In this document: positions 1,857 through 9,040 of the stretch, one piece after another
Position numbering within the stretch: position 1 is the first letter of the stretch
How the letters are laid out: every line of letters starts with the position of its first letter
From: Octopus sinensis
Lineage: Eukaryota
NCBI RefSeq assembly: GCF_006345805.1
Contig: NW_021828251.1
Location: forward strand, 1 to 9,040
Reading direction: 5' to 3'
Length of the DNA stretch: 9,040 bases
Program-made: the position numbers and the translations under genes
Notes under the pieces: model-generated
The model's database searches: none
What the model saw: the letters and a program-made list of their open reading frames with translations, nothing else
Told to the model about the DNA's origin: nothing

Positions 1857-2494
1857 GGTGGACAAAACGGTTAAACCGTATGGCATATAACCAGCCAATG
1901 TAAGCCAATAGCCCACAATGAATATAAGAGACGCTACGACAATATAGCCAGGCTTGTCCATTGGACACTTTACAACAAGTATAGTCTTGACAGAGCAAAA
2001 AATTGGTACGACCACAAACCTGAAGTCATCGTCGAAAACAGAAATGCAAAGAGCCTATGGGATTTTATGATTCAATGGGACCATGAGATTGAAAATACGA
2101 AGCCGCACATATTCCTAATTGAGAAAGAAAACAAACTATGCTGGATCATAGATATAGCATGCCCAGCTGACAACAAGGTATGCGATAAGGAAGAAAGAAA
2201 AGTCGAGAGATATGAGAGGTTAGCTTGGGAATTTAAGCAGTTGTGGTCGATGAAAAAAGGTGGTAGTAGTACCAATAATTGCTGGAGCCCTGGGAATAGT
2301 GAGTAAAAATCTCGAGAAGTACGTGGAACAAATAGGAGGTGCAATAAGGGTGGAGCTCTTGCAGAAAACAGCACTGCTTGGAACCGCTCGAATACTCCGG
2401 AAGGTGCTCGAAAAATAAGAGGTGTTACCTTAGTTTACTGGTAGTGACAGCTGACACCGTAGTACATCTCGAGCGTTAGAAGCTGTGCAAAGGC
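1857..2494 (+). mobile_element. 5'-truncated R4/Dong-like non-LTR retrotransposon, copy 1 (degenerate CCHC zinc knuckle, restriction-like endonuclease and 3' UTR)
   Basis: Translation from 1857: GGQNG*TVWHITSQCKPIAHNEYKRRYDNIARLVHWTLYNKY...WYDHKPEVIVENRNAKSLWDFMIQWDHEIENTKPHIFLIEKENKLCWIIDIACPADNKVCDKEERKVERYERLAWEFKQLWSMKK. After a +1 frameshift in the A-run at 2253-2258 it continues VVVVPIIAGALGIVSKNLEKYVEQIGGAIRVELLQKTALLGTARILRKVLEK* (stop 2416-2418). These are decayed versions of the CxxC...H...C, RHD, RPD...D, KxxKY and GALG motifs of RLE non-LTR elements. A 76-nt 3' UTR follows, then (AAT)n, the known target type of Dong elements. Confidence 0.92.
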
Positions 2495-2558
<64 letters not shown>

Positions 2559-2565
2559 TAATAAT
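2495..2565. repeat. (AAT)n microsatellite; tail/target between the two RLE retrotransposons
   Basis: 21 perfect AAT units at 2495-2557 plus a short imperfect extension. Confidence 0.97.
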
Positions 2566-2710
2566 AGCATGCCCCGGTAGCAACAGGATGAATGTGAAAG
2601 AAGAAGACAAAATAAACAACAATGACGATTTAAAGTGGGAAATACGGAAGTTGTGGTCAATGAGGAGAGTAGATGTGATACCAATAGTAATTGGTGCACT
2701 TGGAAATATC
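2564..2710 (+). mobile_element. 5'-truncated R4/Dong-like retrotransposon, copy 2, left part (a different family from copy 1)
   Basis: IACPGSNRMNVKEEDKINNNDDLKWEIRKLWSMRRVDVIPIVIGALG aligns without gaps to copy 1 (24/47 identical). Homology stops abruptly at 2710 and resumes at 6119. Confidence 0.9.
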
Positions 2711-3344
2711 CAAAGGGCCCGGGAACAGGGGGTGCAGCGGGTGCACCTGCACCCCTTTGAATTTTCAGGTGGTGCAAGATCAAAATAGTGTCTAAAAAAT
2801 TATCTGTATAAGATGCTTGAAGCTAGATTTCGTTTCAAAGCAAAAACAAAGAACTAAAATAAATAAATAAAAGTGATGAAGCTGGGCTTAAAATTCCCAA
2901 GGGAATTTATGACTAACCAACTTCTGAAGCAAAGTAGCGTCAAAATAAAAAGTATGTGACAACAACAACAGTAGCAGCAAACAACAAGAACAACAACATG
3001 ACCAGCATCTAAGGCTACTCTTCAATACATAGCATTACTTGGATTCTTGAAGGCAGCTCGACAAAAATAACTCCAAAATTTTGCAATGCTGAAAATGTGT
3101 GAAGGTTCTCTTGTCTTCTCTCAGTCTGTCTCTCAAGTTCTTTGTAGTTGATGTCGCTAAAGACTGACGACATGGTTGAATGGATTCGACTGTTTGACCT
3201 CAGCCTAAAAATAAAAGCCCATTAAAAATTCTTTCAGTCATATCGGTTTTCTCATTTAGGTTGTTAGGTCTAAAGTTTGACAAGGGAACAAAATGATTTA
3301 TTTTTATCTTTGATATTTTATGCTCATTATTCGAAATACTAGTC

Positions 3345-3849: not shown

Positions 3850-4830
3850 ATATCCGACTCGCAGCATGGATTTCTATCCTGAAGATCTTGCCTAACAAAT
3901 CTTCTCCTTCTTGAAGAATGGATTACAAGGACCATGGATGAAAAATACTTGCTGGACGTGGTATTTTTGGACTTTGCAAAGGCATTTGACTCCGTTAATC
4001 ACTGACTTCTCACGCGCAAACTTCGAGCATTCAAGATTCATCCATTGTTGACTTTGTGTATTTCTTCCTTCCTGAGCTATCGAACCTTTTGGGTGCAGAT
4101 AAATGGAGATCTCTCAGCGGAGACGAATGCATGCAGCGGCGTTCCCCAGGGGTCGGTGCTGGGGCCAATATTTTTCCTTCTCTATATCAACGACCTGTCA
4201 GATTTTCTTGATGGAAGAGTTCTCCTATTTGCAGACGACGTCAAACTTGTCTCATCTAGGGATCAATACGACATACTCCAATTATCGCTGAACCGAGCTT
4301 GGAATTGGGCGGAAGAATGGAATCTGAACTTGAACGCCTCAAAATGCACCCATTTGCCCATAGGTTCACCTCCAAACTCTCCCTTGACTATTGGCCACAA
4401 ACATCAACATCTTAAGATGGTCACTGAAGAAAAGGATCTCAGCATAATGATCGATACTACTTTCAAACTACCACGGCAGGGTATCGAGGCGGCGAACAAA
4501 GCCAGAAGGAATCTTTTCTTCATCCACCGATCCTTTGCTAACCTTTCAATGGACGTCTTTTGGCATGTATATGTCACTCTAGTTCGACCCATCCTCGAAT
4601 ATTACATCCATACCTCAAACCCATATCTCCAGAAAGACATTCAGCACCTGGAATGGGTTCAGCACTTGGCCACCCGAATGGGCGCGGGCTTGTCTAAGCT
4701 TGCGTAAGAGGAACATCTCCGACGGCTGGCATTGCCTTCACTCAAACGACGGAGGATGCAGGGAGATCTCATCCGACTTTCAACATCTTCAACGGACATG
4801 TAAGCCTACCATTTGCGAAGATTTTCACCC
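3850..4830 (+). mobile_element. CR1-group LINE reverse transcriptase relic (includes ORF 4045-4707)
   Basis: One frame from 3850: ISDSQHGFLS*RSCLTNLL...DVVFLDFAKAFDSVNH*LL...SGVPQGSVLGPIFFLLYINDL...LLFADDVKL...LNASKC...EKDLSIMID...YVTLVRPILEY...LEWVQHLATRM...LA*EEHLRRLALPSLKRRRMQGDLI. Stops at 3880, 4003 and 4705. Homology is cut off at about 4830 by the minisatellite; there is no 3' UTR or tail. Confidence 0.95.
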
Positions 4831-5456
4831 GAGGTTTTCTAAATTCCGGAAAGTTTGGTCGAAAATTTCCTGGAAAGTTTGATCGAAAACCTCCTGGAAA
4901 GTTCCGAGAATTCTCTAAATTCAGGAAAGTTTGGTCGAAAACCTCCCGGAAAGTTCCGAGGATGTTCTAAATTCCGGAAAGTTTGGTCGAAAACGTCAAG
5001 TATAGTTCCAAGGTTTTCTAAATTCCGGAAAGTTTGGTCGAAAACTCCCTGGAAAGTTCTGAGGAGTTTCTAACTCCCGGAAAGTTTGGTCGATTTTTTT
5101 GGAAAGTTCAAAGGATTTTGTAACTCCGGAAAGTTTGGTCGAAAACCTCCTGGAAAGTTCCTAGGATTTTCTAAATTCAGGAATGTTTGGTCGAAAACTT
5201 CCTGGAAAGTTCCGAGGATTTTATAACTCCCGGATAGTTTGGTCGAAAACTCATGGAAAGTTCCGGGGATTGTTTAAATTCCGTAAAGTTTGGTCGAAAA
5301 CCTCTTGGAAAGTTCCTAGGATTTTGTAACTCCCGGAAGGTTTGGCCGAAAACTTCATGGAAACTTCCGAGGATTTCGTAACTCACGGAAAGTTTGGTTG
5401 AAAACTTCCTGGAAACGTCCGAGGATTTTGTAACTCCCGGAAAGTTTGGTCGAAAA
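4829..5456. repeat. 52-bp minisatellite, about 12 units; consensus approx. CCGAGGATTTT(C/G)TAA(A/C)T(T/C)CCGGAAAGTTTGGTCGAAAAC(C/T)TCCTGGAAAGTT
   Basis: The core GGAAAGTTTGGTCGAAAA, with variants, starts at 4848, 4872, 4924, 4976, 5027, 5079, 5128, 5180, 5232, 5283, 5335, 5387 and 5439. Spacing is mostly 51-52, with one 49 and one 24-bp half-unit duplication. Confidence 0.97.
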
Positions 5457-5994: not shown

Positions 5995-6118
5995 ATAATA
6001 AAAATTATTATACCTGCATTTGTTTTAATGTTAACATTGGAAAAATCCACATTTTTCATTAAAACAAATTAGGACCTGGGTTTGCACCCCCTTAGCAAAT
6101 TTTGTTGCTGGGCCACTG

Positions 6119-6336
6119 GAAGTATCAGCACTCAACTACCAACATGGCTGAATATGATCGGTGCAAGTGTGAAGGAGGAACATCTTCAGAAATCAGCATT
6201 GTTTTGGAACTTGCAAGAATTCTTCGCAGGGGTCTTGAAGCATAACCGGTAAAGCAAGTGACACATTAGTCTGCTGGCTGTGGAAAGCTGACACTTTCCT
6301 TCATACCCAGCAAAATAAGCTGTGATTTTTCATCAC

Positions 6337-6337
<1 letters not shown>
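6119..6337 (+). mobile_element. R4/Dong-like copy 2, right part (ORF end and 3' UTR)
   Basis: SISTQLPTWLNMIGASVKEEHLQKSAL, then small indels, then GT/ARILRRGLEA* (stop 6243-6245). This is collinear with the end of copy 1 (LQKTALLGTARILRKVLEK*). The 3' UTR shares TTAGT, CTGG, AGCTGACAC and AAGCTGTG blocks with copy 1 and is followed by (TAA)n. Confidence 0.92.
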
Positions 6338-6373
<36 letters not shown>

Positions 6374-6437
6374 TAATTAATAATAATAATAATAATAATA
6401 ATTGATAATAATAACAATAATAATAATAATAATAATA

Positions 6438-6471
<34 letters not shown>
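6338..6471. repeat. (TAA)n microsatellite, tail/target of copy 2
   Basis: Direct reading; a few interruptions. Confidence 0.97.
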
Positions 6472-6472
<1 letters not shown>

Positions 6473-6643
6473 GTGATGATGATGATGGTGGTAGTGATGG
6501 TGGTGGTGGTGATGATGATGACGATGATGATGATGATGATTATGATGATGATGATGATTATGATGATGACGATGATGATATGATGATGATGGTGATGATG
6601 ATGATGATGATGATGATGATTATGATGATAATTATGATGATGG

Positions 6644-6688
<45 letters not shown>

Positions 6689-6689
6689 C

Positions 6690-6743
<54 letters not shown>

Positions 6744-6810
6744 GATGATGATGATGATATGATGATGGTGATGATAACGACGCCAACGACGATGATGATA
6801 AGGATAAGGT
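6472..6810. repeat. (TGA)n microsatellite with TGG/TTA/CGA variants and a decayed right edge
   Basis: Direct reading. Confidence 0.95.
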
Positions 6811-7137: not shown

Positions 7138-7271
7138 AGCAGCAGTGGCAGCAGTGGCAGTAGCAGCAGTAGCGTCGTCGTCGTTATCATCTCCGTCTTC
7201 ATCATCATCACCATCGTAATCATCACCAAGTTAGGTGTCGTCGTCATCGTCATCATCATCGTCATCGTCGC

Positions 7272-7302
<31 letters not shown>

Positions 7303-7447
7303 GTCACCCATCATCATCCTCGTCATAGTCATCATCATCATCATCACCCTCATCCTCATCGTCGTCATCGTCGTGTCTTCGTCGTCGTCATCATCATCGT
7401 CACCCATCATCATCATCATCATCATCATCGTCATCATCATCGTCACC

Positions 7448-7484
<37 letters not shown>

Positions 7485-7502
7485 GTCGTGTCTTCGTCGT
7501 CG

Positions 7503-7536
<34 letters not shown>

Positions 7537-7861
7537 TATCATCATCATCATCGTCATCACCCTCATCCTCATCGTCGTCATCGTCGTGTCTTCGTCGTCG
7601 TCATCATCATCGTCACCCATCATCATCATCATCATCATCATCCTCATCGTCGTCATCGTCGTGTCTTCGTCGTCGTCATCATCATCGTCACCCATCAACA
7701 TCATCATCATCATCATGATCATCGTCATCGTCGCCATCGTCGTGTCTTCGTCGTCGTCGTCATCATCATCATTGTCATCATCACCGTCATCATCATCATC
7801 ATCATCATCATCATAATCATCATCATTGTTGTCGTCATCATCATCATTGTCATTATCACCG

Positions 7862-7910
<49 letters not shown>

Positions 7911-8028: not shown

Positions 8029-8325
8029 GACCAATATCCTTAAGAATGGTCTCTAATTTAGACACAAACCCAGAAGTGTTGTTGTATCTCGGGAGGGTCA
8101 TTATACCAGTAGTAATCACACCCTCCGGTTCTATTTCACTTCTTAATTTCATAAGTGCTTAACCATTATTAATGCTGGTATTTAACTGGTGATACTTGCA
8201 AATGCACCAATTACTATTGCTATCACTCCCGCTCCCTTCCACCACTTTCGTATTTCCCACTTTAAATCTTCATACTTGCTTACTTCTACTTTTTTCACAT
8301 TGATCCTGTTGCTACCGGAGCATGC

Positions 8326-8396
<71 letters not shown>

Positions 8397-8432
8397 GTTG
8401 TTGTTGTTTGTTATTATTATTATATCATCATT

Positions 8433-8500
<68 letters not shown>
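8326..8500. repeat. (ATT)n microsatellite, i.e. (TAA)n on the minus strand
   Basis: Direct reading; short (GTT)n interruption near 8395-8410. Confidence 0.97.
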
Positions 8501-8501
<1 letters not shown>

Positions 8502-8502
<1 letters not shown>

Positions 8503-9036
8503 GATTGAGTGAGAGAGCGTTCATGCCATCAAAGTGACACTGGGGTAAAATATACGAAGCCCAATATACCCATCATGACTACCCGTCTGATAAGGTACAC
8601 CAGGCACATGCATCACAACTATATGTGTGCGCGACATGGTGATCTCATATCAAGATAACAGCACATGACCTTGCAGGTGGGGCCCGTTGAATTTTCTTCA
8701 GGTTGAGTAGCCCATCCCGCCTCAAACGGTCCCTGAATAAGGGTTGTTTAAGGATGTTGAAAGAACCAGCCATGTTTCCAGAGGTGAACTATTCAAACCC
8801 CAAAGAATCCCTCTCAACACATGGCTATGATGCTCCCCCACTACTTCTGCTCGTGATCAGAGATTCACATATCGTCAGCCACTAAGGGACATGCTCAACT
8901 GGTTAAGGTCAAACAACTGACAAGCAAAACGTGGGTATTGAGCAGAATATTGCTGTAGCCCATCTTTTATACCAGACAAAACAATGTACATGATAACACT
9001 TCCAATCAATTAAGATCAGAAGCCATGAGAGCCACT
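8502..9036 (-). mobile_element. Putative non-coding retroposon (SINE-like element or long 3' UTR) ending in a structured 3' end plus (TAA)n
   Basis: A complex-sequence block with a sharp boundary against the microsatellite. There is no minus-strand ORF in the track and I saw no RT/RLE motif. The minus-strand 3' region GGTGT-ACCTTATCAGACGGGTAGTCA matches the copy 1 3' UTR GGTGTTACCTTAGTTTACTGGTAGTGA at 20/27 columns. The 5' boundary is at or beyond the window edge. Confidence 0.6.
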
Positions 9037-9040
9037 TATA

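What the first reader, a model, noticed from the sequence alone, without database searches (positions are those of the whole stretch)
8502..9040. Candidate non-autonomous, (TAA)n-targeting retroposon that borrows an R4/Dong-type 3' RNA structure
Seen on the minus strand: more than 430 nt with no recognisable coding motif, then a 45-nt hairpin (8604-8560) CCTGGTGTACCTTATCAGAC-GGGTA-GTCATGATGGGTATATTGGG. It has 19 pairs, five of them G.U wobbles that work only in this orientation. The loop GGGTA (8584-8580) is complementary to TACCC (8547-8543) just downstream, giving an H-type pseudoknot. A small hairpin GTGTCA/TGGCAT and then (TAA)n follow. The 5' arm and loop match the copy 1 3' UTR at 20/27 columns, including AC-NGGTA-GT. 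Known: SINEs often share 3' ends with a partner LINE, and R2 has non-autonomous SIDE derivatives. I am not aware of a well-described equivalent for microsatellite-targeting Dong elements. Inference: a LINE/parasite pair sharing a fold and a target, with both partners visible in this window. I saw no convincing tRNA A/B boxes, but the 5' end may lie outside the window.
Basis: partly seen in the sequence, partly recalled or inferred. Interest (0 to 1): 0.75.

Follow-up and report, generated by a model that had tools for sequence, protein, structure and literature searches.

The report
TAA-seeking hitchhiker retroposon mimicking Dong tail
This is one copy of a very abundant 558-base repeat that codes for no protein and sits inside TAA repeats; its tail fits a predicted RNA fold shared with the genome's Dong-type jumping genes, so it likely borrows their enzyme to copy itself.

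Summary
Window 8507-9036 (-) is a young copy of a discrete 558-nt non-coding repeat; the contig ends 22 nt short of its 5' end. Genome-wide, 12,683 exact 3' ends occur, 11,007 followed in phase by TAA-type repeats. Copies are 5'-truncated or start at one fixed base, and none examined runs into an ORF. Five Dong/R4-type 3' UTR families share a gapless, covarying 39-nt two-helix fold. The element's consensus fits it as a held-out test (0/300 shuffles); the window copy does not, having lost one base. A covariance model without bulges missed the element. The pseudoknot (83/1000 shuffles) and the plain sequence match to 'copy 1' (156/1000) are not beyond chance. No partner with a matching head or tail sequence was found, and no Pol III boxes, tRNA or ribozyme. 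Best reading: a non-autonomous retroposon likely mobilised in trans by Dong/R4 proteins, closest in kind to Entamoeba EhSINE1. New variant of a known kind.

The parts
8507..9036 (-). Copy of the 558-nt non-coding repeat ('S'), consensus positions about 23-556; the 5' 22 nt are missing because the contig ends
   Evidence: 523 of 528 aligned columns identical, 11 small indels
8563..8601 (-). Dong-type two-helix core (7-bp outer helix, 5x3 internal loop, 6-bp inner helix with a bulge, 5-nt loop); one base of the left loop is lost in this copy
   Evidence: consensus scores 20.4 bits, this copy 1.8
8560..8604 (-).
8543..8547 (-). TACCC, complementary to the loop GGGTA (8584-8580); possible pseudoknot, not beyond chance
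   Evidence: 83 of 1000 shuffles
8523..8540 (-). Small terminal hairpin; a hairpin appears at the same place in Dong families A, B, E and G (by eye)
8326..8506 (-). (TAA)n run: 3' flank of the element and 5' flank of a truncated Dong-type fragment
8182..8325 (-). 5'-truncated fragment of a Dong/R4-type endonuclease C-terminus, same orientation, starting right after the TAA run
   Evidence: translation; resemblance to the other fragments judged by eye
1875..2418 (+). 'Copy 1': frameshifted C-terminal ORF piece of Dong-type family A
   Evidence: up to 69% identical to proteins in the collection, 57% to the best RVT_1-bearing one
2421..2458 (+). Two-helix core in the family A 3' UTR, followed by a hairpin and (TAA)n from 2495
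   Evidence: 41.2 bits; family A was in the model
6257..6295 (+). Two-helix core in the 3' UTR of a second Dong-type family (B), followed by (TAA)n from 6337
   Evidence: 39.9 bits; this copy was in the model

Best explanation
The element is a 558-nt non-coding repeat that sits inside TAA runs in at least 11,007 places and is likely copied there in trans by the reverse transcriptase and endonuclease of Dong/R4-type LINEs, which likely recognise the predicted two-helix fold in its 3' end. Shown: discrete ends, 5' truncation with a fixed 3' end, TAA on both flanks, no ORF, and the fit of the consensus to a fold that covaries across Dong-type families. Inferred: an RNA with a defined 5' end is made (probably by Pol II, since Pol III boxes are absent and the body has two T4 runs); a Dong protein binds the 3' fold, nicks a TAA run and primes reverse transcription there; faulty completion at the 5' junction leaves truncations and short repeats of the 5'-most bases. 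The present-day driver is unknown. Family H is my first guess (intact ORFs, has the fold); family C is second (young, same 5' stutter, but does not fit the fold).
For: Copy number: 12,683 exact matches of the 3' 22-mer, control 0; 10 copies in 60 evenly spaced 10-kb stretches, about 45,000 by extrapolation with a wide range. Fixed 3' end: 11,007 of 12,683 are followed in phase by AATRATRA. Fixed 5' end: 5,899 exact head 24-mers, 3,514 preceded by AATAAT within 2 nt. Of 38 loci whose head lacked that prefix, 22 had a degenerate TAA/GAT run, 12 a duplicated piece of the head, 2 a reverse-orientation run and 2 an internal piece of the element; none had a shared upstream extension (sorted by eye). 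In loci not chosen by the element, 13 of 37 copies start at base 1 and the rest are 5'-truncated, 29 of 37 have a TAA-like run upstream, and 32 of 42 keep the 3' end (these loci are enriched for TAA runs). No ORF, and no protein match to the Dong-type proteins held, best E 0.46. Fold: 18 cores from 5 families align without gaps in 39 columns; 92.3% of cells pair, 11 of 13 pairs change on both sides, 0 of 500 shuffles reach the covariation score, and slid controls fall to 33-55%. A profile trained on 6 Dong families scores the element consensus 20.4 bits and an older copy 26.0 (0 of 300 shuffles each), within the leave-one-out range 12.2-35.2; 317 of 319 background windows score 8.0 or less. 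The same 5' stutter occurs in 3 of 20 element copies and 4 of 45 family C segments. Intact drivers exist: family H has open frames above 1100 aa in 11 of 150 hits, RVT_1 at E 7e-28 and R2 proteins as best solved relatives. Dong and Rex6 insert in TAA repeats (PMC1635306, passage).
Against: No autonomous family with a matching 3' sequence was found among 593 pre-TAA windows in 1.25 Mb, nor among the best-supported loose ends in four public runs at 80% likeness (480 rows not shown). No 5' UTR examined matches the head: H, two older families, C. The covariance model R1 missed the window copy at E up to 5 and gave older copies only 11-13.6 bits, E 1.1-5.6; it also missed the bulged Dong family D copy in L120. 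I designed the bulge-tolerant profile after seeing the element. The element replaces a G that is invariant in the five-family alignment. Family C, young and abundant, does not fit the fold (-15.3 bits), so the fold is not universal among TAA-targeting families. Family H showed the stutter in only 1 of 49 segments, many of them not true 5' junctions.
Confidence: 0.8

Rival explanations
1. It is a SIDE-like internal deletion product (5' end plus 3' end) of one specific Dong/R4 family that is rare, extinct or unsampled, and moves with that family by ordinary sequence-specific recognition.
For: Its 3' end has the Dong-type layout. Only about 10 families were sampled here, while 51 Dong-R4 consensus families are listed for Octopus vulgaris (PMC13282606 supplement row). 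Lack of Pol III boxes fits a LINE-derived head.
Against: No similarity to four 5' UTRs, no coding remnant, no matching 3' family. This rival overlaps the best explanation on mechanism and differs on origin and partner.
Confidence: 0.3
2. It is mobilised by a non-Dong LINE (for example a Tx1, CR1/L2 or RTE type) and the TAA flanks and the fold are coincidental or ancestral.
For: Another abundant SINE-like family also ends at TAA runs (cluster 2, 37 members). No sequence-identical Dong partner was found.
Against: TAA runs lie on both sides, also at truncated copies. Orientation and 3' phase match Dong families A, C and H. The fold scores above background. The 5' stutter is shared with family C.
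Confidence: 0.1
3. It is only the long 3' UTR of an autonomous family, seen as 5'-truncated copies.
For: The tail looks like a Dong 3' UTR; family H has a UTR of about 220 nt.
Against: Thousands of copies start at one base directly after TAA; 0 of 38 exceptions extend upstream; 13 of 37 unselected copies start at base 1.
Confidence: 0.03
4. It is a conventional Pol III SINE with a decayed tRNA, 5S or 7SL head.
For: The length is under 700 nt, and weak box-like words exist with 2-3 mismatches.
Against: No tRNA in 6 loci, no relevant Rfam match at E up to 10, no A or B box pattern, and T4 runs at positions 78 and 512.
Confidence: 0.07

Closest known systems
EhSINE1 / EhLINE1 of Entamoeba histolytica (PMC2996970 and PMC1635306, passages read)
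   Same: 500-600 nt, non-coding, no small-RNA precursor identified, only weak A/B boxes, body unlike the partner, partner with a restriction-like endonuclease.
   Different: EhSINE1 shares about 70 bp of sequence with its LINE and has no specific target. This element targets TAA runs and shares a fold but no detectable sequence with any sampled LINE.
R2 SIDE and R2/R1 SIDE (PMC3414825, abstract only)
   Same: Short non-autonomous element that keeps the target specificity of a site-specific non-LTR element through its 3' end.
   Different: SIDEs are the 5' ribozyme plus 3' end of a known parent and are rare. Here no ribozyme and no parent were found, and copies number in the tens of thousands.
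Dong / Rex6 TAA-targeting elements; 'Dong-R4' of octopus (PMC1635306, PMC13282606, PMC9115989, PMC8967140, passages read)
   Same: Same target repeat, orientation and 3' phase, 5' truncation, two-helix 3' fold, and 5' stutter (family C).
   Different: No ORF; head and body unrelated to the sampled families. The label Dong/R4 for the autonomous families here rests on domain layout, target and the octopus papers, not on a tree with named references.
Bipartite non-autonomous LINEs of RTE, Ingi, Vingi and R2 (PMC5786205, passages read)
   Same: ORF-less, probably Pol II-transcribed, LINE-dependent short elements.
   Different: That paper lists only these four clades as producing them. Bipartite origin is not shown here because no parent 5' end was found.

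Membership tests
Non-autonomous non-LTR retroposon | Many dispersed copies with a fixed 3' end and variable 5' truncation | tested here: met
Non-autonomous non-LTR retroposon | No ORF and no extension into an RT ORF | tested here: met
   (0 of 38 exceptions extend)
Non-autonomous non-LTR retroposon | No terminal inverted or long terminal repeats | tested here: met
   ends of 30 loci and the consensus, by eye
Non-autonomous non-LTR retroposon | Mobilised in trans through an RNA | not testable with these tools
   needs a retrotransposition assay
Dong/R4-dependent element | Insertion inside TAA runs in Dong orientation and phase | tested here: met
Dong/R4-dependent element | 3' structure shared with Dong-type UTRs | tested here: met
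   met for the consensus and an older copy; not met for the window copy; model R1 negative
Dong/R4-dependent element | 3' sequence shared with an identified partner LINE | tested here: not met
   sampling incomplete
SINE in the SINEBase sense (PMC3531059, passage) | Head from tRNA, 7SL or 5S with an internal Pol III promoter | tested here: not met
SIDE / bipartite non-autonomous LINE | 5' end homologous to the 5' UTR of the parent LINE | tested here: inconclusive
   no match to four 5' UTRs; other families not seen full length, and the H 5' end was not reached
SIDE / bipartite non-autonomous LINE | 5' HDV-like ribozyme (R2 SIDE) | tested here: not met
   Rfam and my own descriptor (run without a positive control)
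H-type pseudoknot at the 3' end | Loop pairs with a downstream strand, with covariation | tested here: inconclusive
   5 pairs in the element (83/1000), 5 in family G with different letters (487/1000), 4 in E (297/1000), nothing convincing in A, H or J

The most novel reading that the evidence does not exclude
A sequence-orphan parasite of microsatellite-targeting LINEs: it has no Pol III head and no parent, is recognised by RNA shape alone, and has outlived partner turnover (copies from about 82% to 99.8% identity) by switching between Dong/R4 families that share a conserved 39-nt two-helix 3' signal. That signal would be the cis element for R4/Dong target-primed reverse transcription.
Probability: 0.35. 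Interest if true: 0.68.

Novelty: new variant of a known kind. Interest (0 to 1): 0.48.

Why it matters
If right, it extends non-autonomous partners to microsatellite-targeting Dong/R4 LINEs, which the one survey I read does not list among clades that produce ORF-less derivatives (PMC5786205, passages). It also gives a compact, covarying candidate for the RNA signal that these enzymes read, which is directly testable and relevant to R2-like gene-insertion tools. It covers roughly 0.7% of the sampled DNA (4,431 of 600,000 bases), so it is a sizeable share of this genome's short repeats.

Tried and rejected
Rfam on the window and on a full copy: only low-complexity matches. ARAGORN on 6 loci: none. 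HDV-like descriptor: 0 hits, no positive control. Covariance model R1: missed the window copy and the bulged family D. A longer alignment with family D put no gap at the bulge, so no second model was built. The alignment of element 3' ends had 5 of 29 rows with wrong coordinates (L173, L206, L216, L217, L218), which I ignored; variation among the other 24 looked like decay after insertion and was not used for covariation. Sequencing runs: no RNA holder listed; contigs cannot show starts or strand. Literature: ten searches counted; none showed a described Dong/R4 TAA-targeting non-autonomous family in the listings, and three short motifs of the element were in no paper. Two motifs were absent from the supplements searched (8 of 12 files, the 4 large files unsearched). 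The octopus genome paper PMC4795812 is not held. Repbase and Dfam could not be searched, so the family may already sit in a repeat library under another name. PMC3747384 had none of my terms. That EhLINE1 belongs to the R4 clade is recalled; one search found no paper with all three terms.

Full report
Setting. The window is the whole contig C4722 of a 2.72-Gb animal genome. It is likely an octopus; that label is recalled from the repeat landscape and comes from no call. The finding covers the last 540 bases, on the minus strand.

Observation. The hairpin has 19 pairs with 5 G.U and is strand-specific. The window's 3' 111 nt fold no better than shuffles (z -1.10). The pseudoknot complement (83 of 1000) and the alignment to copy 1 (156 of 1000) are within chance. 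The copy has 11 small indels against 5 substitutions relative to the family consensus, which looks like assembly error (inference). One of the deletions falls in the hairpin.

What the element is. A DNA search gave 4,679 candidates and 44 matches, most at 95-96%. In the 29 loci other than the window's own, the element starts up to 22 nt beyond the contig end, directly after a TAA run, and ends directly before one. The consensus of 48 copies is 558 nt, has no ORF, and has no match to the Dong-type proteins held (best E 0.46); copies range from 82% to 99.8% identity. Exact patterns give 12,683 3' ends, 11,007 followed in phase by AATRATRA, and 5,899 heads, 3,514 preceded by AATAAT within 2 nt. 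I fetched 38 loci whose head lacked that prefix, the first such on C1: 22 had a degenerate run, 12 a duplicated piece of the head, 2 a reverse-orientation run and 2 an internal piece, and none a shared extension. Sixty evenly spaced 10-kb stretches held 10 copies plus one internal fragment, about 45,000 genome-wide with a Poisson range near 22,000-83,000. In loci not chosen by the element, 13 of 37 copies start at base 1, the others are 5'-truncated, and 32 of 42 keep the 3' end. This pattern is what target-primed reverse transcription into a TAA target gives (established knowledge), and it rules out a mere long UTR.

The neighbours. The genome holds at least ten 3' UTR families of RT/endonuclease elements that end on TAA runs. 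Family H has intact ORFs of about 1,270 aa with RVT_1 and R2 proteins as nearest solved relatives. Family C is equally young, with all 150 hits at 98% identity or more. I call these Dong/R4 from layout, target and the octopus literature (PMC13282606: first third of the text, passages and one supplement row; PMC9115989 and PMC8967140: passages; PMC1635306: passage naming Dong and Rex6 as TAA-targeting). No tree with named references was built.

The shared fold. Cores from families A, B, E, G and H align without gaps in 39 columns: a 7-bp helix, a 5-nt loop, a 6-bp helix with a 5-nt apical loop, a 3-nt loop, and the closing strand. Of the cells 92.3% pair, 11 of 13 pairs change on both sides, and slid controls fall to 33-55%; RNAalifold finds 12 of the 13 pairs unaided. 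The rows are related within families, so the evidence is about five independent sequences. A covariance model from this alignment missed the window copy, scored older copies at 11-13.6 bits, and missed family D, which has a bulge like the element's. A bulge-tolerant profile of my own, trained on six Dong families only, scored the consensus 20.4 bits and an older copy 26.0 (0 of 300 shuffles each). Left-out Dong families scored 12.2-35.2, and 317 of 319 background windows scored 8.0 or less; the two higher ones were a family B copy and an unverified Dong-like tail. The window copy scored 1.8 and family C -15.3. I designed the profile after seeing the element, so this is supportive, not blind.

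Partner search. No sampled family shares the element's 3' sequence or its head. Short repeats of the 5'-most bases at the junction occur in the element (3 of 20) and in family C (4 of 45 segments), and rarely in H (1 of 49, many not true junctions). This is modest evidence for a common enzyme type. The head has no tRNA, Rfam family, A/B box or HDV-like pattern, and the body has two T4 runs, so Pol II or read-through transcription is likelier than Pol III (inference).

Mechanism. Shown: anatomy, target, abundance and fit to the fold. Inferred: transcription from a defined start, binding of a Dong protein to the 3' fold, nicking and priming in a TAA run, and error-prone 5' completion. Confidence 0.8 for Dong/R4-dependent non-autonomous retroposition. 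Whether it is an orphan shape mimic or a deletion product of an unsampled family is open.

Comparison and novelty. It works like EhSINE1 (PMC2996970, passages) and R2 SIDEs (PMC3414825, abstract). It fails the SINEBase definition of a SINE (PMC3531059, passage) and is not shown to be a SIDE. PMC5786205 (passages) lists only RTE, Ingi, Vingi and R2 as sources of bipartite ORF-less LINEs. My ten literature searches showed no described Dong-dependent equivalent, but Repbase, Dfam, four large supplement files and subscription journals were not seen. Verdict: real, new variant of a known kind, interest 0.48.

Noticed in passing
L065:291-468 and L029:350-505: A different repeat with inverted arms carries a piece 84-88% like element positions about 90-271, without the 3' end or TAA flanks; the same junctions recur as loose ends in 64-123 contigs of one run. 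Capture by, or donation from, a MITE-like element is undecided.
   Followed up: partly
G000:C1 about 68,851,373-68,861,000 (L259, L260): A tandem array of the first 54 nt of the element: a minisatellite grown from the 5' stutter. L120 has a shorter array of a 23-nt unit.
   Followed up: partly
L008 (three copies, period 620) and L090:4281-5226 (two copies truncated at the same base): Tandem copies with identical spacers or identical truncation points, which suggests duplication at the DNA level through the TAA flanks.
   Followed up: no
window 2564-2715 and about 6110-6336 (+): What looks like one Dong family B fragment split by about 3.4 kb of other sequence with similar G/C-rich words at both ends; judged by eye, not tested.
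   Followed up: no
window 4006-4707 (+): RT fragment (RVT_1, E 4.5e-15) of a different LINE type, followed by a 52-bp satellite of 11.4 copies at 4867-5456.
   Followed up: no
window 6337-6775 and 7244-7910: Long ATG and TCA triplet arrays facing each other, forming an imperfect inverted repeat of about 220 nt with a 900-nt spacer.
   Followed up: no
family C 3' UTR, e.g. L014:2152-2260 (-): Does not fit the 39-nt core, but its GGTAG word is complementary to the last bases before the TAA run, a possible alternative long-range pairing (by eye).
   Followed up: no
L083:3923-4042 (+): An unclustered pre-TAA window that scores 22.3 on the fold profile and 15.2 bits on model R1: probably a further Dong-type family.
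   Followed up: no
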